DNA of 64,000 nucleotides from a virus (lineage: Duplodnaviria > Caudoviricetes). This document shows, in pieces, positions 9,816-56,247 of the stretch. The number at the start of each line of letters is the position of its first letter. Position 1 is the first letter of the stretch. The stretch covers positions 96,001 to 160,000 of IMG/VR virus record IMGVR_UViG_3300022723_000184; one strand, given 5' to 3'. The notes below the pieces were generated by a model. The model was not told the origin of the DNA and searched no databases. It worked only from the letters and a program-made list of their open reading frames with translations. Position numbers and translations under genes: made by a program.

Positions 9816-9888
9816 CGGCTAGAGTCACACCTTGTAAGCCGGTGCGCTGGCATGGTGACGCTAGTATAGCTAGATAAGGGGCTCAAGG

Positions 9889-28037: not shown

Positions 28038-28138
28038 AGTCACGCCTTTTGAACCGGTATGCCGGCATGTTGACACCAGTACGGCTACCTAAATAAACGT
28101 GTTTTTTGCGTCAAAATACATGCAGGCAAATTAGCCCG

Positions 28139-28174
28139 GTCTCATCTTCTAAACCGATGAGCAGGTATTAAGAT
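28139..28174 (-). CRISPR. Solitary CRISPR repeat C with leader end and -10 box
   Basis: 35/36 identical to the array repeat; preceded on - strand by TATAAT-ACCGAGG, like the array leader TATAAT-GCCGCGG. Confidence 0.92.
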
Positions 28175-28196
28175 CCTCGGTATTATAGCCGAACCG

Positions 28197-29194: not shown

Positions 29195-29929
29195 ATGAAG
29201 ACTCTGATCATCGCTATCGCTGCCGTGCTGCTCGTGTGTCCGGCGTTCGGGCAGGAGCAGGAGACGAAACTTCAATCACTCGGCGCTCGTCGGGCCATGG
29301 TCCGCTACAAGGCCAAGGTCGCGAACGCAGAGCGCCTGTACAAGGCCGCACTGTTGCGAGCGGCGAAAGACCTGAAAGAAGAACTTCAAGCCGACCTCAT
29401 CAAGGTTACGAAGACCGGCAACCTGGAGTCCGCCAACCAGGTGAAGGCCGAGCTGGATCGCATTCAGGCGGAAATCGAAAAGATGACCAACCCTGACGCT
29501 AAGCCGAGCAATACGCCCAGCGACTCCGTTGAAATCACTGAGGGCGATCCGAATGTCAAAGTCGGGAAACTCAAGCCCACTCGCGACTGGTGGACGCTCG
29601 CCCAACTCAAAGCAGGTGACAAAGTTTACTTCCGGGCGGCTGGAACATGGGAGATCTTTGGCGTCGGCACCTGCGGGCCTGACGGCGGCCGTGGAAGCAA
29701 GGGCGACAAGAACGACCCGCTCCCCGGCGCTCCAGTGGGCGCAATTCTCGGCAGGCTTCCTGGCTCCACCGACGAGAAGCGGGCTACTGGCTTTGTGATT
29801 GGGCGCAGCGCCGTATTCACTGCCAAGGAGGATGGCGCGTTCCAGCTTCGCGTCAACAAGACGAGCGGCTACATCTACAAGTGCGATGGCGAACTGGCCT
29901 ACAAAGTCAAGGTCGTTCCAGCCAACTGA
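29195..29929 (+). CDS. Secreted protein: signal peptide, coiled coil, C-terminal PA-IL/LecA-like lectin fold
   Basis: KAGDKVYFRAAGTW..CGPDG..PLPGAPVGAILG..FVIG..GAFQLRVN pattern. Confidence 0.6.
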   Translation: MKTLIIAIAAVLLVCPAFGQEQETKLQSLGARRAMVRYKAKVANAERLYKAALLRAAKDLKEELQADLIKVTKTGNLESANQVKAELDRIQAEIEKMTNPDAKPSNTPSDSVEITEGDPNVKVGKLKPTRDWWTLAQLKAGDKVYFRAAGTWEIFGVGTCGPDGGRGSKGDKNDPLPGAPVGAILGRLPGSTDEKRATGFVIGRSAVFTAKEDGAFQLRVNKTSGYIYKCDGELAYKVKVVPAN

Positions 29930-29932
29930 TCC

Positions 29933-29946
29933 AAAAAGTACTTTTT
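29933..29946. promoter_or_regulatory. Palindromic motif AAAAAGTACTTTTT
   Basis: Second copy; abuts solitary repeat E. Confidence 0.6.
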
Positions 29947-37568: not shown

Positions 37569-37829
37569 ATGAAGAAAATCATCGAAACAGACGAATCGGA
37601 AGGGCTTGAATCTCTACTCGGCGAGCAAGTCACGCTGTGGTGCGAGTGCTACATCTACGCCGGCAAGTTGATCGGCGTGAACACGCACGATGTGAAGCTC
37701 GCCGACGCAAAGATCGTCTACGAAACCGGTTCGCTCAACGAAGCCGGATTCAAGAATGCTCAGTCGCTCCCTGGCGAATCGTGGTATGTGCGCATCCCTA
37801 AAATCGAATCCTATGGGGTCATGAAATGA
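37569..37829 (+). CDS. Small Sm/LSm-like beta-barrel phage protein
   Basis: GEQVTLWCECYIYAGKLIGVN..VKLADAKIVYETG. Confidence 0.55.
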   Translation: MKKIIETDESEGLESLLGEQVTLWCECYIYAGKLIGVNTHDVKLADAKIVYETGSLNEAGFKNAQSLPGESWYVRIPKIESYGVMK

Positions 37830-38020
37830 GCCTTGGCGCTGGCGGCAGAATGTCGTGGTCGCGGTCGCGGTCGTGGTCGCGGTCGTGGTCGTGGTCGTGG
37901 TCGCGGTCGTGGTCGGGGTCGCGGTCGTGGTCGCGGTCGTGCTCGGGGTCGCGGTCGTGGTCGCGGTCGTGGTCGCGGTCGTGGTCGTGGTCGCGGTCGG
38001 GGAGCGACAACAACCGATAG
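37826..38020 (+). CDS. Ser-Arg/Ser-Trp dipeptide-repeat peptide
   Basis: ATGA overlap with previous gene; stop overlaps next RBS. Confidence 0.55.
   Translation: MSLGAGGRMSWSRSRSWSRSWSWSWSRSWSGSRSWSRSCSGSRSWSRSWSRSWSWSRSGSDNNR
37853..38002 (+). repeat. Hexanucleotide tandem repeat TCG(C/T/G)GG, ~25 units
   Basis: Directly visible 6-nt periodicity. Confidence 0.95.
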
Positions 38021-39160: not shown

Positions 39161-40048
39161 TTGGCCAAACGCAAGTTCACGATGCACGAGCAGATGATCT
39201 TCGACGTAATCCGCAAACAGGCGGGCACGCTGTCGAAGGCGGCGTTGGAAGGCGTGATGAACGCCGTCGACGCCAACGCCTCCGAGATCAAGATCACGCT
39301 CGACGAGGGCAGGATGACCCTGTCCGACGACGGTAAGGGGTTCCGGTCCAAGAAGGAGATCGAAGACTACTTCGAGACCTTCGGCCGACCTCACACAGAG
39401 CAAGAGCAGAAGGTCTTCGGCAAGTTCCGTATGGGTCGCGGGCAGATGTTCGCGTTCGGCAGGAACCTGTGGGAGACCGGACGATTCCGGATGGACGTCG
39501 ACGTCAAGGACAAGGGCCTGGATTACGACCTGAAGGAGCTGTCCGAGAAGGAGCGGGCGCCCGGTTGCTCGATCACGATCGAGCTGTACGACCAGTTGCT
39601 GCCGAGTGACGTCGACAAGACGGTCAGGGACCTGGAGCTGTGGTGCAAGTGGGCGCCGCTCCGTGTGGTGCTCAATGACCGGGAGATCAGTTCGGATCCC
39701 GCTGCCCAGGAGTGGCAGTACGAGACGGACGAGGCCTACGTCAGTCTGACGGGTGTCGGCGGTCTGACGATCTACAACCAGGGCGTGTTCGTCATGGACA
39801 TTCCGGCCTACCGGTACGGGACGGGCGGCGAGGTCGTGACCAAGATGGGTCAGGATCTTGACGTCAACTTCGCCCGCAACGACATCCTGGCTTCGTGCCC
39901 GATCTGGAAGAAGGTCTCGCCCTTCATCGACCAGCGGGCCACGGAGAAGAACACCAAGAAGCGGGCCCTGGACGACGGCGCCCGCCAGAGGCTGGCCCAC
40001 CAGTTGAAGGCCGGCGAAGAGATCGAGTCTCATCTTCTAAACCGATGA
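39161..40048 (+). pseudogene. GHKL (HSP90/MORC/rIIA-like) ATPase, truncated by a CRISPR repeat
   Basis: EGVMNAVDA, DDGKG, GKFRMGRG motifs; last 7 codons come from the inverted repeat; likely C-terminal remnant at 40077-40130. Confidence 0.7.
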
Positions 40049-40062
40049 GCAGGTATTAAGAT
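40027..40062 (-). CRISPR. Solitary CRISPR repeat G with leader end and -10 box (TACAAT, 40070-40075)
   Basis: 35/36 identical to the array repeat; 46 nt identical to copy C. Confidence 0.92.
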
Positions 40063-40139
40063 CCTCGGTATTGTAGTCTAGCAAGAAGGACTTCGTGTTC
40101 GACTGGATCAAGAACATCATGCTCATTTAGGAGGTTGTT

Positions 40140-40406
40140 TTGAAAACCATTTGGAAATTCCCGCTCGAAATCGTCGACCAGCAAGAGGTCGAGATGCCTG
40201 CCGAAGCAGGCGGCATTCACGTGGAGATGCAGAACAACCAGCTGTGTTTGTGGTCGATGGTAGATCCCGAGGCGCCCAAGGTGTCCGTCAAGATCCGTGT
40301 CGTTGGTACTGGGCACCCTATCCCGGACGCCGACAAGCTGACGCACTTGGGCTCGTGCCTGATGGCCGGCGGTGCCCTCGTGTGGCATGTGTTCAAGAAG
40401 GACTAG
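40140..40406 (+). CDS. Hypothetical phage protein
   Basis: RBS AGGAGG; KTIWKFPL..LCLWSMVDP..VGTGHPIP..LVWHVF. Confidence 0.7.
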   Translation: MKTIWKFPLEIVDQQEVEMPAEAGGIHVEMQNNQLCLWSMVDPEAPKVSVKIRVVGTGHPIPDADKLTHLGSCLMAGGALVWHVFKKD

Positions 40407-41074
40407 AAGGGGTCGGATACGCGGCCTAACCAGTTTACCACCGTCGGGCCGAGGTGGTAGGCGGCGGTCTGCTCCATGTAGACCACGCGATCGCGTTCGG
40501 CCCACTGCTTCGCAAATTGGATGTCGCAGGTCTCGGCGGTCTGAAACCGTTCGGGGTACGGCTTCCGTTGCGAGGTGTGGTAGAGCTGGAAGTAGCCTCG
40601 GACCAGGCCGTGCTCGAAGGCGGCTGAGTCCGGGGGGATGTACGCCAGGCGGGTGTGATACGGGATGAACGGGTCGGCCTGCTTGATCGCATAGCGAGAG
40701 GGTACGACGAACCTTGGCGCCCCGTACAGCTTAGTAGGGTCAGGGACGACCCGGTGCAGTTGGTCGATCGTCTTCTCGGGGATCACGATGTCCGCGTCCA
40801 GGTGTAGTATCCAACCAGGGGACGCATCGAAGATGCCAGCGCACCGGCTTAGCAGGTGCGACAGTGCCTTGCCCTTGTTGAACGGTGCACCGCCCTCGTA
40901 GAAGGCGTCGGTGCGGACAAGAGAAAAGCCCAGGTCCTTGCAGACCTGGGCCGTGTGTTCGTCTTGGTTGTCGGTCACGACGACGACCCTGGGGGTCAGC
41001 CGCTTCCAGGACAGGCCGGCGATCTCCAGGGTGTCGGCGTAGTTGACGCTGACACTGACGATCGTCGGCTGCAT
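40403..41074 (-). CDS. Glycosyltransferase, GT-A fold
   Basis: VSVSVNYADTL..VVTDNQD..FNKGKAL..ILHLDADI. Confidence 0.8.
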   Translation of the reverse strand: MQPTIVSVSVNYADTLEIAGLSWKRLTPRVVVVTDNQDEHTAQVCKDLGFSLVRTDAFYEGGAPFNKGKALSHLLSRCAGIFDASPGWILHLDADIVIPEKTIDQLHRVVPDPTKLYGAPRFVVPSRYAIKQADPFIPYHTRLAYIPPDSAAFEHGLVRGYFQLYHTSQRKPYPERFQTAETCDIQFAKQWAERDRVVYMEQTAAYHLGPTVVNWLGRVSDPF

Positions 41075-42243: not shown

Positions 42244-43906
42244 GGCTAAGGCACCTCGTAGTCTGAACATCCATGTTCCCTGGGCCGAGGTCGCCGAGGC
42301 TCTGGAGTTGCCCCTGAAGAGCCAGACACTCCCCGCTACGACCAGATGCCCATTGTGCGGCGGACGCCGCTTACGTATCTATCAGGATAGCACAAGCGGG
42401 GGGTCATGGCACTACTGCGGTGATTGTAAATCCCGCGGTGACATGATAACACTGGCCGGTTCCGTGTGGAAAACGGACGTCTACGAGACGCTCGACAGGC
42501 TGAGAGATGCTGGCATCGATCTGCCCGATACGCAGTTAGGGTCGCCCCAGGTCGTCAGTTACGCCGATCGACAGAAGCGACAGGCCACGATCAGCGAACT
42601 TTGGAAGCTGGCGCAGCGTCAATTGTGTGCCGGCCGGATGGGGGGAGTCGCTGACCTGCAGCGGAAGTACTATCTTCGGTTCAAAGGCGACCGTGAGCGG
42701 GTGGAGGACGGGCCGGCCAAGCTATACGGGGCCCTGACCGTCAAGCAGGCGGAGCGGGCGTTGTACAGCCCGGGGTCGTTGAACAAGTACGGGCGGACGA
42801 AGAACGCGCACCTCGCCTTCAAGGGCCGCAACTGGGGCGATGTCCTGGTCATGCCGTTCTACGACATGCCCCAGCGGATCTGTGCCCTCAGCTTTATGGG
42901 GCGCCGCGGCAATCCGAAGACCGACCAGGTGTTTTACACGACGCACACCAGCGCGATCGAGGCGGGCCTCGGCGGGCTGCCCTCGATCGAACTGGCTCAT
43001 GACCCGGACACGGTGATTGCCGTAGACGACTGGCTGTTCTACTTGCGGGCCCAGATCCGCCACTTCCGCAGCTCGTACATCCCGATGCCCATGGTCGTAT
43101 GGCGGGACGAGGGCAAGATCAGGACCCAGCGGGCGTGGAACGCGGTCAGTGACAAGAACATCGTGTTCTGGGGGTTTAACTTGGACGCCCGGATGATCCG
43201 GCACGCGATGGAGACCGACGGCATGATCTCGCTGCTCGGGCCCAAGGAGTTTGTCGACGACCAATCGGTCGGCCACTTCCTGCGGGACCACCGGGGCACC
43301 GACCTGCCCCGCGACGTCATCCGGGCCGCGAGGCCGTGGCGCAAGGCTCTGGCCCACTGGCTCTCGTGCAATAGGCCGGAGCACGGCCACAATCTGTTCA
43401 AGGCCCTCGAAGAGCTGGGCGAGGACGTCAGCCACATCCTGAACCAGATCGGCAAGGGCCCGACGACGATCGCCCGACCGGTCATGCGGAGGTCGGCCGA
43501 GGTCGGCCCCTACACGATCTCCGAGCGAGGCGGGTGCTGGTACCACGACAGGTACAGGACCCGGCCCGAGCTGATCATGGATGCGGTTCTCAGGGTGACC
43601 CATGCGATCAACGACCTGCGGTCGGGTGACCTATGGTACCGCGGGTTCATCGAGTACCGCGGGCAGCGGATCTATTTTCTGGAGCCGGCCAAGACCATGG
43701 AGGGCCGGACCCTGTTCTGGATCCGGGACAAGGTCAGCGCCGCGGGTCTCGGGCTGCTGCGGTACAGCTCGATCTGGTCACGGGGTGGGAGGCACAATCT
43801 GTACCAGGTGGCCGTGACCTTCGACGAACCGCGGTTTGTGAATGAAGACCTGGCCTTGCACGTGCAGGAGATGCGTGAAGCCGGGCACCTGATCGATCCG
43901 ATCTAG
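42242..43906 (+). CDS. DNA primase-like protein (N-terminal zinc-binding domain)
   Basis: RCPLC..WHYCGDCKSRGDMI CHC2-like motif; central Toprim-like region weakly conserved. Confidence 0.55.
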   Translation: MAKAPRSLNIHVPWAEVAEALELPLKSQTLPATTRCPLCGGRRLRIYQDSTSGGSWHYCGDCKSRGDMITLAGSVWKTDVYETLDRLRDAGIDLPDTQLGSPQVVSYADRQKRQATISELWKLAQRQLCAGRMGGVADLQRKYYLRFKGDRERVEDGPAKLYGALTVKQAERALYSPGSLNKYGRTKNAHLAFKGRNWGDVLVMPFYDMPQRICALSFMGRRGNPKTDQVFYTTHTSAIEAGLGGLPSIELAHDPDTVIAVDDWLFYLRAQIRHFRSSYIPMPMVVWRDEGKIRTQRAWNAVSDKNIVFWGFNLDARMIRHAMETDGMISLLGPKEFVDDQSVGHFLRDHRGTDLPRDVIRAARPWRKALAHWLSCNRPEHGHNLFKALEELGEDVSHILNQIGKGPTTIARPVMRRSAEVGPYTISERGGCWYHDRYRTRPELIMDAVLRVTHAINDLRSGDLWYRGFIEYRGQRIYFLEPAKTMEGRTLFWIRDKVSAAGLGLLRYSSIWSRGGRHNLYQVAVTFDEPRFVNEDLALHVQEMREAGHLIDPI

Positions 43907-46860
43907 TCGAGATCCCAGTTCGGGTTCTCGGGATTCAACGCATCCATGATCGCACGGTCGATGCCGATGTTTTCGATCTCGGCAAGGTTCGGCCAGTTGC
44001 CAGTCGCCTGGTACAGTGTGATCAGGCCGAGGTTGGTGGCCTGGGCGAAGTCGTCGGACAGCGCAGGATCCCGGATGATCGTGTAGATGTCCTTACCCAG
44101 GCGGCTGTCGACCTTCTCCTCGACCAGGGCCAGGAACTCCCGGATGAGGCCGGGGTTCTCGGCGTCCTTGTAATCGTCTTGAAAGAACCGGAGCCAGCCG
44201 GTCTTGATCTGTTGGCAGGTGAGCTGCAGGGACCGGGGCTTGTCGACCAGGTAGTAGTCGCGGGGGTGGCGGTCCGTCCGGGGCTTGGGAACGATGATGC
44301 CGCCGACGGCCGCACGCTGCAGCTGGCAGGCGATGATCCGGTTGTAGGGGAAGCCGGCCTGATTGATGAACGTCTCCCGCAAGGAGCCGGCACCCGTGTA
44401 GTCGTGAGCCATCAGGTGACACTTGAACCGGGTGAGAAGGGCAATGGCCAGCCGGGCTTCCCGGGCATGGTCGTGGGGCGTCAGCGAACGCAGGGCGTAC
44501 AGGCAGTCCACCCGACCATCGGGCATCATGCCGAGGACCGAGTAGGTCGTGAAACTGATGCCCTGTTCGCCGCCGCCGCCCCAGTCCACGCCCAAACAGC
44601 GGAGGGTGTACTCGCCGATCTGTTTCTGGGCCTCTTCGACCTCGTTCTTCCACGGAAGGCACGCGGCCTTCATCAGGTCGGTGAGCGTCACGAGCTTCGA
44701 GCCGGTGTCGTAGCTCTCGCCGCAGACCTCGTTGTAGAACACATGGATCGGGGTGTTGCCCCGGCCCTCACGCTTGCCGAGAAGGACGTCCCACTTCTCG
44801 GCGTTGCCGTAGTGCATCGGCATGATGATCTGCGGCACGTGGTACCCGGCGAACGTCCAACGCTTTTCCGGGTGGGCATGAACCCAACGGCCGTGCAGCT
44901 TCGGGTGGATGGGCCTCCGGCACTTGGCGCAGATTACGGCCGGATTGTTGAAGGAGATGTCGTCACGCAACGGGCCGATCATCTTGTCGAGATCGTGGGT
45001 CATCGCCGGTACGTTATGGTAATTGCAGCGGTGACATTTGATGACCCATTCGGCCATCGAACTGTCTCGCCAAAGAGTTTCGATCGTGTTTTCGAGGGTC
45101 TTTGGAGTGCCCGCAAACGACTCGATGCCTCCGTACTTCGATCCGGACATCGTTTCCCGGATGATCGGGATGAAGTCTTTGTCGAGGTCCTGCACTTCGT
45201 CATAACAATTATGTGTCAGCACACCTTCAGCGAAGAAGCAGTGTTCTCGTTGCGTGTTGATGTCCCAAACCGGTTTGAGGTCAAGACGTTTTACGTGGAC
45301 TACGTGTACAAACGATGTCTCACTTTTCGACACTCTGGCCCGCAGACGGGATTCGATGCCGCAATCTGATGCTGCTTCGCTTCTATCGTTTTCCCGCACA
45401 TCGAACAGGCAATTTCGGGGCGAGGTTTCGCGAGCTTGTAAGACATCATCTTCGGGACGAACGCGGATACGTTTTCGGACAGTTTCCTGGAGTCCGCGGC
45501 CGGCAGGTAAACTAAGTGATAGAGCTTTCCTGTACGAGAGTTTATGGACGGGTGACGTTTGGCCGACAACAATTCTCGTCGCTGTAGGTCGGACGCGATG
45601 AGGTCCACTTCCCTTTCGGTGAACCCTTGCGTGTTGAAGTGGATAGTACTTCTTTGTCGTGCCCCGTCGTCCATGAGCTAGTAAGCGATTCCTCGCCAGT
45701 CGAGTCGTTCTAGCCAATCCTGACTGACGCGTTTCTTTCCTTCCGGACAGGTCAGCGCATACAGCGGAGCCAGCTCCACGGCGCTTACGGTGTTGAACAC
45801 GCAAGATACTTTGCCCCAGCCTTTGTTTTCTTTCACTCTTGGTGGTGTGGACACGTACTCGCCTAAGACTGCTGCCTTGTGTCGGCAGTACGCTTCTCGA
45901 GACCCGCCGTGGCGGAAGCATACCCGCGGGTTTGCTGTGTTGCTCGATTTTGACAGGCAAGCATCCCCGAGCAAACAGCCGAGTAGAAGTTGTTCTTGCT
46001 CGCAGGTCAACGGAGGCACCTTCTTCGGTTTTCTCCCCGGGCGAGAAAAGGGTCGACAAGCGGATCCATTCGCCCTCGGCGGTTTTGAACCGAGAGTCTT
46101 TTGTACACCTAAGGACCGAGCCATTGGAAAACCGGACTTCGTAGATCTGCTGGACGCCTTGGAAGATTTTTTCGGTAACGACATCGTCGACAACCTTTCC
46201 GTCGTTGTTGACGGCCGGCACGATGTCCCCAGTTCTGGCTTCGTCGATCCGGATACCGCCGCGGTTCCTGGTTTCGATTATTGTATCGCCTACGAAGCAG
46301 TTCTGGTCAGCGGAAATACCACGAGTACGTTCGGCGTCGAGGAACGCGAACGAGAAGATCATCTGGCTGTTGTTGCGGAAGGTACGTTGCAGCACAGAGC
46401 CAATCGTGTTCGTGCCGGTGAACACGTTGACCACGGGCGACTGCTCGATGAACGGTCGGATGTAGTTCTGGCTGAATCGCCGGATCATTTCAAACAAGGG
46501 CGTGACGTACAGCGTCGAGAAGTACGGCAGGCAGTTCGACTGCACGACGCCGCGACTTGCCAGGCTCGTCGACTTGGAGACTTGACGGCCTGTTTTGAGC
46601 AGCGACTTGCGGGCCATGCGAGTCCGGAAGAACGGCTCGAACGGGAAGTAGTTGTCGAGGCTGTACGGTTCGCCCTTGAGGTTGAGTAGCAGCGGGAGCA
46701 GGGGTTTCAAGGACGCCACCCTGCTTTTGCGCATGAGGTGGGCGGCCACCGTAAGTCGGCGGGTGTTGGCGTCCTCGAACCCCGATAGTTTTAGGCCGTC
46801 AAGGATCTTGGGCGAGACGTCGAGGCCCATTTCCTTGATGACGTCGGAGACAACTGACAT
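43903..46860 (-). CDS. terL: Terminase large subunit (GpA-like) containing an intein
   Basis: KTGRQVSKSTS P-loop; YDEVQD Walker B; LGVDWG nuclease; CxxC; C-terminal DDFAQA. Confidence 0.85.
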   Translation of the reverse strand: MSVVSDVIKEMGLDVSPKILDGLKLSGFEDANTRRLTVAAHLMRKSRVASLKPLLPLLLNLKGEPYSLDNYFPFEPFFRTRMARKSLLKTGRQVSKSTSLASRGVVQSNCLPYFSTLYVTPLFEMIRRFSQNYIRPFIEQSPVVNVFTGTNTIGSVLQRTFRNNSQMIFSFAFLDAERTRGISADQNCFVGDTIIETRNRGGIRIDEARTGDIVPAVNNDGKVVDDVVTEKIFQGVQQIYEVRFSNGSVLRCTKDSRFKTAEGEWIRLSTLFSPGEKTEEGASVDLRARTTSTRLFARGCLPVKIEQHSKPAGMLPPRRVSRSVLPTQGSSLRRVRVHTTKSERKQRLGQSILRVQHRKRRGAGSAVCADLSGRKETRQSGLARTTRLARNRLLAHGRRGTTKKYYPLQHARVHRKGSGPHRVRPTATRIVVGQTSPVHKLSYRKALSLSLPAGRGLQETVRKRIRVRPEDDVLQARETSPRNCLFDVRENDRSEAASDCGIESRLRARVSKSETSFVHVVHVKRLDLKPVWDINTQREHCFFAEGVLTHNCYDEVQDLDKDFIPIIRETMSGSKYGGIESFAGTPKTLENTIETLWRDSSMAEWVIKCHRCNYHNVPAMTHDLDKMIGPLRDDISFNNPAVICAKCRRPIHPKLHGRWVHAHPEKRWTFAGYHVPQIIMPMHYGNAEKWDVLLGKREGRGNTPIHVFYNEVCGESYDTGSKLVTLTDLMKAACLPWKNEVEEAQKQIGEYTLRCLGVDWGGGGEQGISFTTYSVLGMMPDGRVDCLYALRSLTPHDHAREARLAIALLTRFKCHLMAHDYTGAGSLRETFINQAGFPYNRIIACQLQRAAVGGIIVPKPRTDRHPRDYYLVDKPRSLQLTCQQIKTGWLRFFQDDYKDAENPGLIREFLALVEEKVDSRLGKDIYTIIRDPALSDDFAQATNLGLITLYQATGNWPNLAEIENIGIDRAIMDALNPENPNWDLD
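45208..46299 (-). mobile_element. Intein (364 aa) with frame-shifted, inactivated LAGLIDADG endonuclease
   Basis: Starts CFVGDT, ends FFAEGVLTHN before Cys; LLGCLLGDACL and IAY*LMDDG motifs lie in another frame. Confidence 0.9.
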
Positions 46861-53339: not shown

Positions 53340-53550
53340 CAGACCGTGAGCCCGACCAGCACAGGTTGCAGGAAAGCCGGTCGAGTTGGAGTTCGACGGC
53401 CACGGCGGCCCCGGGTCGGCCCTCGGGGGCTGGCGGATCCTGACCGAGGTCCTCTGATGACCCTGTTCTCGGAGCGGGCCACCCGAAGGGCCTACTGGGC
53501 CCTGGGTGGTCCGGAGAACAACCGCTGCTGGCGGCCGAGTCGCCAACAGG
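53340..53550 (+). ncRNA. Candidate structured leader RNA upstream of cas12m
   Basis: GC-rich non-coding stretch with nested stems TGTTCTC/GAGAACA, GGCCACCC/GGGTGGTC, AGGGCC/GGCCCT. Confidence 0.4.
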
Positions 53551-53575
53551 CTGCTCATCGACAAGAGGATGAGAC
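53551..53575 (+). repeat. Degenerate solitary repeat H in the cas12m 5' UTR
   Basis: CTGCTCATCG-ACAAGAG-GATGAGAC: first 10 and last 8 nt identical to the repeat 3' part; exactly 20 nt before the ATG. Confidence 0.88.
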
Positions 53576-53595: not shown

Positions 53596-55365
53596 ATGGG
53601 ATTCAATAAGGACCCAGAGGCCCGCTGTGTGGTTTACCAGTACGGCGGCAAACATCCGACGGAAAACGAAGACGAAGCGATCAACCAGCTCGCCAAGGCG
53701 AACCGTTTTCGGAACCGGCTCGTTGAGTTGGAGCTACAACGACGTGAAGAATACCACGCTGCGTTCTCGGGTTACGGAGACCTGGCGGAGCCGTCAAATC
53801 AGCTTGAGACGCTCAACGAGCAGCTGACCGCTGCGGTGGCAGAACTTAAGGCGTGGAGACAATTGAACGGCACTCGAAGTCAACACCCGACGCTAACCCC
53901 GCAGATCGTTTCGCTACGGGCTCAGGCTCGCCAGCTACGGACACAGATCAAGTCGATCAAGGAAGCGGCCAAAGGCGATCCTACGGTGCAGGCGGCAATC
54001 GAAAAAGCAAACCAGCAGCACCGAGATCAGACCAAAGCTGCGTACGGCGCTGTAAGAGAATCGAACCCGGAGGCCGAGGACGCCAGAGACCGGCATGGGT
54101 TGTTCTGGGGAACGGCCCTCCTAGTTCAAAGGGCAGCGACACAGTTCCAGAAGGGCCCTCCCCCGAGGTACAAACGTTTCGACGGGACGGGAACTATCGG
54201 CGTGCAGCTGCAGAACGGGATGTCTGTGGAGGATCTGTTCACTCCGGGCGGCAGCGTCTGGATTGACCCCGTTCCTCCGGAGGCCTGGGACCCGCAGACG
54301 CCGAGAGGTCAAAGGCGAAAACTCGCAAGAACGATGCTACACATGCGGATCGGCGGGAAGCCGCAGGCCTGGGTGATTCTAAAGCTACCTGTCACCGTGC
54401 ACAGACCGCTGCCTGCAGGAAAACTTATCAAGTGGGTCACGGTCACTCGGCGTAAGTACGGTTCACAGGCGCGGTGGTATGTAAACGTCACGACGGATAT
54501 CAGGTCTGGTGGCACGCTTCACGATGATGTTGCGGCTGCCGGATTTGTGGGTGTCGACCTGGGTTTCAGGTTGTTCAAGCCCGCAGAAAGCAGCTCAGGC
54601 AAGCGATCGCTCCGAGTGGCTGTATGGGCCGGAGATGACGGGGAGACAGGCGAACTTCGCCTCGACGCGAGGTTTATGTCCTACATCTCAAAGGCCGACG
54701 GTTTGAGGTCGATCCGGGACAAGCGGCTTGATCAGATCAGAGCGGCGCTGCTTCCGTTGTGTGACGAGGCGGGTACGCCGGAGTGGTGGAAAGACGACAC
54801 TCAACACATGGCCAAATGGAGGTCTCCTCGAAAGCTGTATCACTTGCTCCACAAGTGGAAAGACAACAGGTGGGATGGCGACAAAACGCTGTTCGATCTG
54901 TTGGTTAAGTGGGTAGTTCAGGACCGTCACCTCCACGTGTGGGAAGCCAACAATCGCCGAAAAGTAGCGGCTCGTCGCCTGGACATGTACCGGAACCTGG
55001 CGGCCTCTTTGAGGCGCAAGTACGCGGTTATCGGGATCGAAGACATCGATTGGCGGATCTGGAGCAAGTTGGCCCTGCCCGAAGAAGAGGAGACCAAGTC
55101 AAAGAAGTTCCGTGTTCAAAAGAAACATGCGGCGGTCGGTCTGCTTGCAGAGACGCTGTCGAATTGCGGGGCACAGGTTGTACGTTTGGATCCCGCTTAC
55201 ACGACGAAGCGGTGCAACGCCTGCGGCAAGATCACCGAATTTGACGCTGACCGGCACCTGCGACATACGTGCGAACATTGCCATGCGGAGTGGGACCAAG
55301 ACTACAATGCGGCAAAGAACCTGCAAGACATGGCGAGCGGCAACGCCGTAACGCAAACCGCGTAG
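53596..55365 (+). CDS. cas12m: Type V-M CRISPR effector Cas12m-like (589 aa)
   Basis: LFWGT, RYKRFDGTGTIGVQLQ, VHRPLP, KWRSPRKL, EANNRRK motifs as in Cas12m; RuvC D321/E482/D569; CNAC..CEHC zinc finger; adjacent array. Confidence 0.88.
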   Translation: MGFNKDPEARCVVYQYGGKHPTENEDEAINQLAKANRFRNRLVELELQRREEYHAAFSGYGDLAEPSNQLETLNEQLTAAVAELKAWRQLNGTRSQHPTLTPQIVSLRAQARQLRTQIKSIKEAAKGDPTVQAAIEKANQQHRDQTKAAYGAVRESNPEAEDARDRHGLFWGTALLVQRAATQFQKGPPPRYKRFDGTGTIGVQLQNGMSVEDLFTPGGSVWIDPVPPEAWDPQTPRGQRRKLARTMLHMRIGGKPQAWVILKLPVTVHRPLPAGKLIKWVTVTRRKYGSQARWYVNVTTDIRSGGTLHDDVAAAGFVGVDLGFRLFKPAESSSGKRSLRVAVWAGDDGETGELRLDARFMSYISKADGLRSIRDKRLDQIRAALLPLCDEAGTPEWWKDDTQHMAKWRSPRKLYHLLHKWKDNRWDGDKTLFDLLVKWVVQDRHLHVWEANNRRKVAARRLDMYRNLAASLRRKYAVIGIEDIDWRIWSKLALPEEEETKSKKFRVQKKHAAVGLLAETLSNCGAQVVRLDPAYTTKRCNACGKITEFDADRHLRHTCEHCHAEWDQDYNAAKNLQDMASGNAVTQTA

Positions 55366-55439: not shown

Positions 55440-55502
55440 CGATCGAACCGCTCGAAAACGGCCTGATAACCATGTACGCACGTGTAGGTTATAATGCCGC
55501 GG
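55440..55502 (+). promoter_or_regulatory. CRISPR leader with -10 box TATAAT (55490-55495)
   Basis: TATAAT 7 nt before repeat 1; same end motif at solitary repeats C and G. Confidence 0.7.
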
Positions 55503-56247
55503 ATCGTAATACCTGCTCATCGGTTTAGAAGATGAGACGCGGCATTGATTGCCTTCTTGAGTTGCTGCTCCAACATCGTAATACCTGCTCATCGGTTTAG
55601 AAGATGAGACATCGCCGCATCGCTGGAAGCGGGCGTGGCGTCGGCGGATCGTAATACCTGCTCATCGGTTTAGAAGATGAGACCTTTCTCTGTGTCCGAG
55701 ATAACGGGGTCACTAATGTCATCGTAATACCTGCTCATCGGTTTGGAAGATGAGACAAGCATCCGAGCAGCCGCTACAAGGACAAGATCGGCATCGTAAT
55801 ACCTGCTCATCGGTTTAGAAGATGAGACTAGTCGGGCAATTGCTCGAACGGCACAGAGATATCGTCATCGTAATACCTGCTCATCGGTTTAGAAGATGAG
55901 ACGCTTACCGGTGGCCGAGGCCAAGGCGCGATGGAGAACATCGTAATACCTGCTCATCGGTTTAGAAGATGAGACACGGTGGATCCGGTCGAGCGGCTGA
56001 TCCTTCACATCATCGTAATACCTGCTCATCGGTTTAGAAGATGAGACCCGGTGATCGACGCGGTCCTCGAGAACGCCGAGGACATCGTAATACCTGCTCA
56101 TCGGTTTAGAAGATGAGACAAGTGGATCAGGTTCTTCTCATCGTAATACCTGCTCATTGGTTTAGAAGATGAGACGCGGACTGCCCCGAGATGCGGCGCC
56201 GGCTGTGGGTAATCGTAATACCTGCTCATCGGTTTGGAAGATGAGAC
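55503..56247 (+). CRISPR. CRISPR array: 11 x 36-nt repeats ATCGTAATACCTGCTCATCGGTTTAGAAGATGAGAC, 10 spacers
   Basis: Repeats start at 55503, 55575, 55648, 55721, 55793, 55867, 55940, 56012, 56084, 56140, 56212; spacers 36-38 nt except spacer 9 (20 nt); 3' hairpin CTCATC/GATGAG + AC. Confidence 0.99.

What the first reader, a model, noticed from the sequence alone, without database searches (positions are those of the whole stretch)
39161..40130. Leader-repeat cassette G joined into a GHKL ATPase gene, turning the gene into its own antisense guide
The ATPase reads ...LKAGEEIE and then enters the inverted repeat. After the 50-bp cassette a codon-typical remnant (SKKDFVFDWIKNIMLI*, 40077-40130) ends at the next RBS, so the middle of the gene appears to be replaced. 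The - strand transcript would give crRNA TCGATCTCTTCGCCGGCCTTCAAC, which cannot self-target here (no PAM) but could hit an intact homolog in a rival phage. It could also be the scar of half-site Cas1-Cas2 integration of a genome end. Prediction: intact homologs read ...GAGATCGA-NAA, giving a TTN PAM at the junction.
Basis: partly seen in the sequence, partly recalled or inferred. Interest (0 to 1): 0.85.

Follow-up and report, generated by a model that had tools for sequence, protein, structure and literature searches.

The report
Solitary Cas12m repeat truncating phage ATPase
In an uncultured 200-kb phage that carries its own Cas12m CRISPR system, a 50-base promoter-plus-repeat unit has replaced the middle of an ATPase gene, so the surviving gene end sits where a CRISPR spacer would sit and could act as a guide against intact copies of the gene in related phages, though no RNA, target or read support could be checked.

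Summary
Window 40027-40076 is a 50-bp unit on the minus strand. It consists of a -10 box (TACAAT), a 7-nt discriminator and a 36-nt repeat. The repeat is 35/36 identical to the repeat of the phage's 11-repeat array, which lies next to a Cas12m gene. The unit is 49/50 identical to a sister unit at 28139-28188.

It abuts a GHKL ATPase ORF of 295 aa whose last six codons and stop come from the repeat. Full-length homologues are 540-680 aa. Ours matches only their first ~290 residues, and the conserved C-terminal HExxH half is nowhere else in the 202-kb genome. After the unit lie 17 startless codons with a strong coding signature and a family-like C-terminal motif. An internal replacement of ~0.8 kb is therefore the best reading.

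Function remains inferred. No close relative carrying a target was found, and expression and read support could not be tested. The phage has no Cas1 or Cas2.

The unit is one of at least 15 solitary repeats in this genome with compensatory hairpin changes. A regulatory or decoy role, with the truncation as collateral damage, is a serious rival. Other first-reader notes of this scan flagged the same unit and the wider repeat set.

The parts
39161..40026 (+). Native part of the GHKL ATPase gene (codons 1-289, N-terminal half only)
   Evidence: HATPase_c_3 at E 6e-9. It is 58-68% identical to the first ~290 residues of 540-680-aa homologues. GC3 is 0.88 and there are no internal stops.
40027..40062 (-). 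Solitary 36-nt Cas12m repeat (hairpin CTCATC / GATGAG, AC tail). On the plus strand it supplies the ORF's last six codons and the TGA stop (40027-40048).
   Evidence: 35/36 identical to the array repeat. The hairpin forms in the RNA fold. There is no second repeat downstream.
40063..40076 (-). Leader piece: -10 box TACAAT (40075-40070) plus the 7-nt discriminator ACCGAGG
   Evidence: Same layout as TATAAT + GCCGCGG in front of the array, and as six other solitary repeats. No -35 box was found.
40003..40026 (-). Predicted guide (24 nt; the 17-nt core is 40010-40026), antisense to the last native ATPase codons
   Evidence: Read directly from the sequence. The 17-nt mature guide length is taken from PmCas12m.
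40077..40130 (+). Startless 17-codon remnant plus TAG stop, probably the old C-terminal end of the same gene
   Evidence: GC3 15/17 against GC1+2 7/34, Fisher 8e-6. Tail likeness to the four nearest homologues has P = 0.022.
40140..40406 (+). Next gene (DUF7352), intact. Its Shine-Dalgarno sequence overlaps the remnant's stop.
   Evidence: PF24043 at E 6e-30, aligned from residue 1.
28139..28188 (-). Sister unit (cassette C) in a 290-bp intergenic region
   Evidence: 49/50 identical, with identity ending exactly at the -10 box and at the repeat end.
53596..55365 (+). cas12m (589 aa, RuvC triad D-E-D)
   Evidence: PDB 23vw Cas12m at E 6e-67 and Cas12m2 8hhl at 1.5e-26. Cas12f1-like TNB domain.
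55490..56247 (+). Array leader -10 box (55490-55495) and CRISPR array of 11 repeats (55503-56247)

Best explanation
What it is: a real and evolutionarily recent rearrangement. A 50-bp mobile unit of the phage's own type V-M CRISPR system has replaced about 0.8 kb of the interior of a GHKL-ATPase/HExxH gene. The unit consists of the -10 box, the discriminator and one repeat, and it is a near-identical copy of cassette C. The first 289 codons of the gene now run into the inverted repeat, which supplies six codons and a stop. The last 17 codons are left untranslated.

How it would work (inferred): on the minus strand the unit is built like the first unit of the array. Transcription from TACAAT would therefore give an RNA that starts with the repeat and continues as the antisense of the ATPase 3' end. 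The phage's Cas12m would bind the hairpin and trim the RNA to roughly 33 nt of repeat plus a ~17-nt guide. The phage's own copy is exempt because the repeat end (GAC) sits where a PAM would be. An intact allele in a closely related co-infecting phage would show the same 17-24 nt behind a TTC/TTG-type PAM. Cas12m would bind it and block it without cleavage.

The locus would thus work as a one-repeat mini-array whose 'spacer' is self-derived.

Origin: the junction has the geometry of a true repeat-spacer joint. The likeliest origin is either recombination between a leader-proximal spacer against this gene and its protospacer, or an illegitimate copy of cassette C that was kept because the joint is functional.

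Shown: the anatomy, the truncation, the effector family and the PAM-compatible junction in homologues.
Inferred: transcription, loading, targeting and origin.
For: - Cassette anatomy and its non-chance recurrence.
- Cas12m with an array 13.5 kb downstream.
- Truncation exactly at the repeat edge, measured against 266 homologues of 500 aa or more.
- The C-terminal half is absent from the 202-kb genome, and the gene is the only GHKL copy.
- The remnant has a coding signature and a family-like tail.
- The unit differs from cassette C by 1 of 50 bases, while other solitary repeats are far more diverged, so the event is recent.
- Seven promoter-bearing solitary repeats share the same -10 spacing.
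- Hairpin covariation across 12 distinct repeat copies is 100% paired, with 5 of 6 pairs showing double changes. This shows the repeat RNA is under selection in this genome.
- A single repeat is enough for Cas12m maturation, and known Cas12m PAMs are YTN, YTTS and TTV or T/C-rich.
- The junction-equivalent triplets in the three nearest intact homologues give TTC, TTG and TCC. About 10% would be expected per site by chance.
- No bacterial genome among the 185,579 species scanned carries this repeat, so there is no sign that the unit mimics a host array.
Against: - There is no expression data and no read support.
- No allele close enough to be a target was found in the viral, metagenome, genome or protein collections. 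The PAM of this Cas12m is unknown because no spacer has a protospacer match.
- The PAM evidence rests on homologues only 58-68% identical, at a poorly conserved position, and one of the three fails.
- G's -10 box carries a T-to-C change and has no -35 box.
- The sister unit C and most other solitary repeats sit in ordinary intergenic positions, right behind stop codons or over ribosome-binding sites. This points to a general cis-regulatory or decoy role in which the flank is irrelevant.
- Characterised Cas12m effectors do not cut DNA, so any benefit would have to come from binding alone.
Confidence: 0.4

Rival explanations
1. Collateral damage by a regulatory or decoy repeat. The unit is just one more member of the phage's set of at least 15 solitary repeats. 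The job of those repeats is to bind Cas12m as pseudo-crRNAs. That could titrate or time the effector (Racr-like), mark mRNA leaders and 3' ends, or drive antisense transcription. A fresh copy of cassette C happened to land in the ATPase gene together with a deletion. On this reading the sequence after the repeat has no targeting role, and the truncation is neutral, mildly harmful, or a useful knock-out.
For: - Sense-strand copies end 13-21 nt before start codons, so that the 'guide' covers the ribosome-binding site. Minus-strand copies sit 0-36 nt behind stop codons of intact genes. One example directly follows the stop of a sulfotransferase gene that is full-length against its PHROG profile.
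- The hairpin is kept by compensatory changes.
- Promoter-plus-single-repeat units in phages are known RNA anti-CRISPRs, including type V-A, and a non-targeting crRNA also inhibits by competition (PMC10651486).
- The sister unit C lies in plain intergenic DNA.
Against: - The junction is PAM-compatible in two of three homologues, which this reading must treat as chance (roughly 1 in 10).
- Described Racrs are not associated with cas genes in the same element, whereas this phage carries the cognate effector and array.
- No host array with this repeat was found.
- The reading does not explain why the join is exact at the repeat end on one side and at the -10 box on the other.
Confidence: 0.3
2. 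A non-functional scar. The unit is the footprint of a past recombination between a CRISPR array or mini-array that held a spacer against this gene and the matching protospacer in the phage. The array could have belonged to a rival phage or to the host. The recombinant escaped Cas12m binding because the PAM was lost. The unit is now inert and the gene is dead.
For: - The join is exact at the repeat end, the neighbouring triplet in homologues is PAM-compatible, and the orientation is that of a spacer.
- Spacer-protospacer recombination between phages and CRISPR loci is documented (Varble et al. 2019, Nat Microbiol 4:956, as listed in PMC9071438). The mechanism itself is from my own knowledge of that paper.
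Against: - A second, non-homologous join at the -10 box is still required.
- The leader piece matches cassette C of the same genome, not a foreign array.
- The ATPase fragment shows no decay: GC3 is 0.88 and there are no stops. That only says the event is recent.
Confidence: 0.15
3. Assembly artefact. The contig is chimeric at the cassette, for example through the 46-nt identity with cassette C or through a spacer-protospacer match, and the true genome carries an intact ATPase.
For: It is a single metagenomic contig, and the protein is seen on only one contig. The record is estimated to be 90% complete.
Against: - Both flanks of the unit are unique sequence that shares no k-mer with the flanks of cassette C or of the array. 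Two separate false joins 50 bp apart would therefore be needed.
- G carries a private base (40073) found neither in C nor in the array leader.
- The missing C-terminal half is not in the contig.
- With two direct copies in one linear contig, the given order is the only path that uses the 11.9 kb between them.
Confidence: 0.05
4. The gene is not truncated. This phage simply has a naturally short, N-domain-only form of the ATPase, and the unit lies in the intergenic space behind it.
For: Forms of about 300 aa exist on long contigs and end near the same domain border. P0161 (302 aa) is seen on 12 contigs and is followed by separate ORFs. P0179 is 310 aa and P0180 is 276 aa.
Against: - Those short forms are only 39-45% identical. 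All homologues of 50% identity or more on adequate contigs are 540-680 aa.
- Our ORF lacks its own stop and borrows one from the repeat.
- The conserved L-x-L-x-T-x-V-x-G-R motif that follows directly in relatives is missing.
- A startless coding remnant lies behind the unit.
Confidence: 0.05

Closest known systems
Solitary repeat units (SRUs) / RNA anti-CRISPRs (Racrs) of phages (Faure et al. 2019; Camara-Wilpert et al. 2023, PMC10651486)
   Same: A single CRISPR-like repeat lies directly behind a predicted promoter in a viral genome, with no second repeat. It would bind the cognate Cas protein.
   Different: Described SRUs are not associated with cas genes in the same element, and they mimic the host's repeats. 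Here the cognate cas12m and an 11-repeat array are in the same phage, and no host array with this repeat was found. The unit is fused to a gene it has truncated, and the joint has repeat-spacer geometry.
Virus-borne mini-CRISPR arrays used in inter-viral conflict (Medvedeva et al. 2019, as cited)
   Same: The proposed role is the same: a small virus-encoded guide unit aimed at close relatives for superinfection exclusion. The carrier is protected because it lacks the PAM-flanked target.
   Different: Mini-arrays have two repeats around an acquired spacer and rely on host Cas proteins. Here there is one repeat, the 'spacer' is the carrier's own adjacent gene sequence, and the effector is phage-encoded.
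Type V-M CRISPR-Cas12m (Wu et al. 2022; PMC10442227; PMC11013384), including the phage-borne MvCas12m of myxophage MV-1 (preprint 10.64898/2026.09.14.751636)
   Same: A compact ~590-aa effector with an adjacent array, no adaptation genes, and a 36-nt repeat with a 3' hairpin. Self-processing and binding-only interference are expected.
   Different: Neither the bacterial systems nor MV-1 have been reported to have dispersed solitary repeats or gene-fused repeat units. This effector is 46% identical to its nearest database relative.
cr-like regulatory RNAs (scaRNA, CreA, type I/V-A standalone repeats; Shmakov et al. 2023, 10.1101/2023.03.03.530964)
   Same: A standalone repeat outside the array gives a guide-like RNA for the resident effector.
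   Different: Those guides pair partially with a PAM-flanked promoter of a regulated gene and lie inside cas loci. Guide G pairs perfectly with its own flank, which has no PAM, and it lies 13.5 kb from cas12m.
TnpB omega-RNA logic (guide = DNA flanking the element's end)
   Same: The guide is not acquired. It is whatever lies next to the scaffold-encoding end, so that element-free alleles are recognised and the carrier is exempt. Cas12m descends from TnpB.
   Different: There are no transposon ends, no TnpA and no tnpB in the unit, and the scaffold is a CRISPR repeat with its own promoter. The resemblance is in logic only and was not tested.
Promoter-stem-loop cassettes (PeSLs) of T4-type phages that mediate modular shuffling (Arbiol et al. 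2010; from my own knowledge)
   Same: A short promoter-plus-hairpin unit is repeated at gene boundaries, and fresh copies are associated with deletions and rearrangements.
   Different: PeSLs have no link to a CRISPR effector, and their hairpin is not a Cas-binding repeat.

Membership tests
Type V-M CRISPR-Cas (Cas12m) locus | Effector homologous to Cas12m over its full length | tested here: met
   PDB 23vw Cas12m at E 6e-67 over residues 14-578. Cas12m2 at 1.5e-26.
Type V-M CRISPR-Cas (Cas12m) locus | Adjacent CRISPR array with a ~36-nt repeat ending in a hairpin, repeat 5' of the spacer | tested here: met
   11 repeats at 55503-56247, starting 137 bp after the gene. The hairpin is CTCATC/GATGAG plus AC. 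A 46%-identical relative has the same repeat architecture.
Type V-M CRISPR-Cas (Cas12m) locus | PAM-dependent DNA binding without cleavage | not testable with these tools
   The RuvC triad here is D-E-D. D-E-D Cas12m orthologues tested in PMC11013384 still did not cut.
Solitary repeat unit / Racr | One repeat closely matching a CRISPR repeat, with no partner repeat | tested here: met
   35/36 identical to the array repeat. The best second-repeat match within 327 nt is 16/36, which equals background.
Solitary repeat unit / Racr | Promoter immediately upstream | tested here: inconclusive
   TACAAT lies 7 nt before the repeat, as in the array leader and six other units. No -35 box was found, the consensus scan was silent, and there is no RNA data.
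Solitary repeat unit / Racr | Mimics the host's repeat, is not linked to cas genes in the element, and inhibits the host system | tested here: not met
   The cognate cas12m and array are in the same phage. The repeat was not found in 185,579 species genomes. Inhibition itself is not testable here.
Virus-borne mini-array | Two repeats flanking a spacer that matches related viruses | tested here: not met
   There is a single repeat only. No related virus with a matching site was found.
GHKL ATPase with C-terminal HExxH domain (uncharacterised, ~560 aa, common on large phage contigs) | N-terminal Bergerat-fold ATPase domain | tested here: met
   PF13589 at E 6e-9. The invariant N, DxGxG and RMGRGQ motifs are kept.
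GHKL ATPase with C-terminal HExxH domain (uncharacterised, ~560 aa, common on large phage contigs) | C-terminal half with the conserved HE-x-C-H ... HDHD motif | tested here: not met
   It is absent from the ORF, and tblastn against the whole genome gives no hit better than E 0.01.

The most novel reading that the evidence does not exclude
Guide capture without adaptation genes. A phage lacking Cas1-Cas2 makes new Cas12m guides by placing a mobile promoter-repeat cassette directly against a PAM-flanked stretch of one of its own genes. The insertion removes the PAM, so the carrier becomes immune. It also turns the adjacent self sequence into a guide that silences every relative still carrying the intact allele. 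This is a CRISPR analogue of the TnpB omega-RNA 'flank as guide' principle, working as an exclusion or drive element between phages.
Probability: 0.15. Interest if true: 0.85.

Novelty: new variant of a known kind. Interest (0 to 1): 0.55.

Why it matters
Phage-borne CRISPR systems usually lack adaptation genes, and how they obtain useful guides is an open question. This locus shows a repeat unit joined to the phage's own gene with the exact geometry of a repeat-spacer joint. That suggests guides can arise by moving the repeat to the target rather than the spacer to the array.

If the RNA is made and loaded, it would be a natural single-repeat guide gene for a binding-only Cas12m. It would offer a simple test bed for inter-phage exclusion, and a hint of how TnpB-like 'flank as guide' logic persists in CRISPR systems.

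Even on the dull reading, it documents that these units are mobile and can destroy genes.

Tried and rejected
1. Searching for an intact close allele or a related phage. Peptide-pattern scans of viral and metagenome contigs were run with the ATPase, the primase-like gene and Cas12m. Exact repeat scans were run on viral, metagenome and genome contigs. Nothing closer than 68% protein identity was found.

2. Read support.

3. PAM from protospacers. The array region was searched against phages and plasmids, and only chance-level hits came back. No spacer or solitary-repeat guide has a second site in the phage's own genome within 4 mismatches, apart from the duplicated region next to cassette C.

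4. Host-gene targeting.
   - The 24-nt guide has one exact match, in the rplB gene of a Phycisphaerae MAG, with CTT on the PAM side.
   - I reject this as chance. The 18-mer encodes the common peptide A-G-E-E-I-E. It hits 85 of 401 Phycisphaerae genomes at up to 1 mismatch, in unrelated genes. That tally includes one unpublished genome, G284.
   - The array spacers do not hit that MAG.
   - The 20-mer hit in an IMG/VR contig is likewise in an unrelated frame context.

5. The remnant compared with the tails of all 146 long homologues was not significant. Only the post-hoc test on the four nearest is.

6. Missing half elsewhere in the genome: none found.

7. Cas1 and Cas2 in the phage: none found.

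8. Defence-system models for the ATPase family (PADLOC): none matched.

9. Rfam: no family at gathering score in the window.

10. PAM test at the two other repeats whose neighbour ORF also ends inside the repeat (genome 46773 and 53583). Those genes have no homologue in the phage collection, so the test could not be made.

11. Solitary repeats around the 46%-identical Cas12m relative. None was clear in the 21.7 kb available.

Full report
**Context**

The window is bases 96001-160000 of a 201,946-bp IMG/VR virus record estimated to be 90% complete. It is a large tailed phage. It encodes a terminase with an intein, a baseplate wedge protein and virion proteins.

At 53596-55365 it encodes a 589-aa protein that matches solved Cas12m structures over its full length (23vw at E 6e-67, Cas12m2 8hhl at 1.5e-26). 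The RuvC residues are D-E-D.

A -10 box (TATAAT, 55490-55495) lies 137 bp downstream of that gene. It is followed by 11 copies of a 36-nt repeat ending in the hairpin CTCATC-N9-GATGAG-AC (55503-56247). The phage has no Cas1 or Cas2. A phage-borne Cas12m has been reported once, in a 2026 preprint on myxophages.

**The observation**

None is expected in shuffles.

Read on the minus strand, the unit is C-TACAAT-ACCGAGG followed by a repeat that is 35/36 identical to the array repeat. This reproduces the array's own leader layout of a -10 box, 7 nt, then the repeat. No second repeat follows within 327 nt; the best match is 16/36, which equals background. The RNA hairpin forms in the predicted fold.

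On the plus strand, the ORF 39161-40048 is a GHKL ATPase (PF13589, E 6e-9). It runs into the inverted repeat after ...LKAGEEIE and takes six codons and its stop from the repeat.

**Is the gene truncated?**

Yes, by the evidence available.
- A search of 1.84 billion representative proteins gave 1271 homologues. Nearly all of the best 150 are 540-680 aa, and they align only with our residues ~3-290.
- A second search, seeded with a full-length homologue, found closer ones: P0268 (575 aa) and P0267 (564 aa), both 68% identical to ours.
- Of 331 collected homologues, 266 are 500 aa or longer.
- Directly after our last native codon, these relatives continue with a conserved L-K-L-x-T-A-V-T-G-R stretch. 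About 270 more residues follow, including an HE-x-C-H ... HDHD motif.
- That half is nowhere else in the phage genome (tblastn), and the gene is the only GHKL copy.
- A few ~300-aa forms exist on long contigs (P0161 on 12 contigs, P0179, P0180). The cut therefore lies near a natural domain border. Those forms are only 39-45% identical and have their own stop codons.

**The remnant**

Bases 40077-40130 read as 17 codons plus TAG, in a frame closed by a TAG directly upstream, so there is no start codon. GC3 is 15/17 against 7/34 at the other two codon positions (Fisher 8e-6).

Compared with the tails of all 146 long homologues, the peptide is not significant. Compared with the four nearest it is (P = 0.022, post hoc). 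It shares their terminal pattern F-[DE]-x-[LI]-x-x-[YFI]-[LFM] one to three residues before the stop.

The stop overlaps the Shine-Dalgarno sequence of the intact DUF7352 gene at 40140. The simplest reading is that about 0.8 kb of the gene's interior was replaced by the 50-bp unit.

**Artefact?**

Reads could not be consulted. However, both flanks of the unit are unique and share nothing with the flanks of cassette C or of the array. A chimera would therefore need two false joins 50 bp apart. G also carries a private base, and the missing gene half is not in the contig. I put misassembly at about 5%.

**The junction**

The DNA of the three nearest intact homologues reads as follows at the equivalent codons:
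- L022: CTGGAG AAC
- L010: ATAGAC AAC
- L023: CTGGAG GAC

On the guide strand, the three bases before the protospacer-equivalent are TTC, TTG and TCC.

Known Cas12m PAMs are YTN, YTTS and TTV or T/C-rich. Two of the three therefore fit, where about one site in ten would fit by chance.

This is modest support from diverged sequences at a variable position. It was, however, a prediction made before the data were seen. The phage's own locus has GAC at that position.

PmCas12m trims a pre-crRNA both inside the repeat and at guide nt 17-18. One repeat followed by any sequence is therefore enough to make a mature guide.

**The wider setting**

A descriptor scan of the whole genome found at least 15 solitary repeat-like hairpins.
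- Across 12 distinct sequences, all 72 stem cells pair, and five of the six stem pairs show changes on both sides. No shuffle and no slid register comes near this. The RNA hairpin is therefore under selection.
- Seven minus-strand copies carry a TA-n-A-n-T box at the array's spacing.
- Sense-strand copies end 13-21 nt before start codons, including that of cas12m itself.
- Minus-strand copies sit 0-36 nt behind the stop codons of plus-strand genes. One directly follows the stop of a sulfotransferase gene that is full-length against its profile.
- In two further cases (genome 46773 and 53583) the neighbouring ORF also ends inside the repeat. I could not test whether those genes are truncated, because they have no homologues in the phage collection.

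G and C are almost identical while the others are well diverged. G is therefore a recent copy.

This setting cuts both ways. It shows that the units are functional and mobile. It also shows that most of them sit where a cis-regulatory or effector-titrating role makes sense and the flank need not be a guide.

**Explanations**

My best reading (0.4) is that the unit is a real, recent replacement that created a one-repeat guide gene. Its RNA, loaded into the phage's Cas12m, would bind intact alleles of the ATPase gene in close relatives. The carrier would be exempt because the repeat replaced the PAM.

The main rival (0.3) is that G is simply a new copy of a regulatory or decoy repeat and the ATPase was collateral damage. 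This resembles RNA anti-CRISPRs, except that the cognate effector is in the same genome.

An inert scar of spacer-protospacer recombination (0.15) explains the joint geometry but not the match of the leader piece to cassette C. A natural short form and misassembly get 0.05 each.

**What I could not find**

No allele close enough to be targeted was found, and no protospacer for any array spacer. The PAM of this effector is therefore unknown.

An exact 24-nt match of the guide to the rplB gene of a Phycisphaerae MAG, with CTT on the PAM side, looked exciting. It is chance. The 18-mer encodes A-G-E-E-I-E and occurs at up to 1 mismatch in 85 of 401 genomes of that class, in unrelated genes (one of those genomes, G284, is unpublished).

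**Novelty and score**

Solitary repeats, mini-arrays, cr-like regulators and Cas12m are all known. A solitary repeat of a phage's own Cas12m system that has truncated a gene and joined it with repeat-spacer geometry has not been described in what I could search.

It is a single metagenomic instance with no expression or read data. I rate it a new variant of a known kind, with interest 0.55.

Other first-reader notes of this scan flagged the same unit and the genome-wide repeat set. I checked their coordinates, but not their regulatory claims.

Noticed in passing
window 40827-40862 (+), inside the minus-strand gene 40403-~41080: A solitary repeat (27/30 identical to the one at 9824-9859, stem changed by compensatory substitutions) lies antisense inside a glycosyltransferase-like gene. 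It is read in frame there as ...ALSHLLSRCAGIF.... This is the same frame as the SHLLNR-stop tail that cassette G gives the ATPase, but without the stop.
   Followed up: partly
window 28075-28138 and genome 189125-189190 (outside the window; L019): About 60 nt on the 'guide' side of cassette C recur near 189.1 kb, with 29/31 identical in the first 31 nt. No repeat lies next to the second copy, and its flank there reads ...TTGAG. It may be a duplicated regulatory region or a self-target of cassette C.
   Followed up: partly
whole genome: 5222, 7620, 46773, 53583, 72764, 100886, 101900, 105824, 124139, 125957, 129550, 136027, 136840, 149553, 163592: At least 15 solitary repeat hairpins with compensatory stem changes. 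Sense copies cover ribosome-binding sites, including that of cas12m (window 53541-53575). Antisense copies, each with its own -10 box, abut the 3' ends of genes.
   Followed up: partly
genome 46773 and 136027 (window 40027): The plus-strand flanks of two different antisense repeats both read CGAAGAG-nn-CGA directly before the repeat. Four of nine antisense units have guides starting with TC. This may reflect an insertion-site preference or a microhomology.
   Followed up: no
window 56120-56139: Spacer 9 of the array is only 20 nt, while all the others are 36-38 nt.
   Followed up: no
window 37828-38020: A long run of 12/18-nt tandem units (GTCGTGGTCGCG-like) gives an R-G or D-H/D-R dipeptide repeat, depending on the strand read.
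   Followed up: no
window 43903-46860 (-): The large terminase subunit gene (985 aa) is interrupted by an intein (Hint/intein splicing domain hits).
   Followed up: no
window 29920-29945 and genome 46800-46830: The palindrome AAAAAGTACTTTT lies just upstream of two solitary repeats. It may be an operator or part of their promoter.
   Followed up: no
L020 (JGI contig Ga0309935_100041, 87 kb, 38% GC): The nearest Cas12m relative (46% identity) sits on a low-GC phage-like contig with a 10-repeat array of the same repeat architecture. No clear solitary repeats were seen in the 21.7 kb examined.
   Followed up: partly
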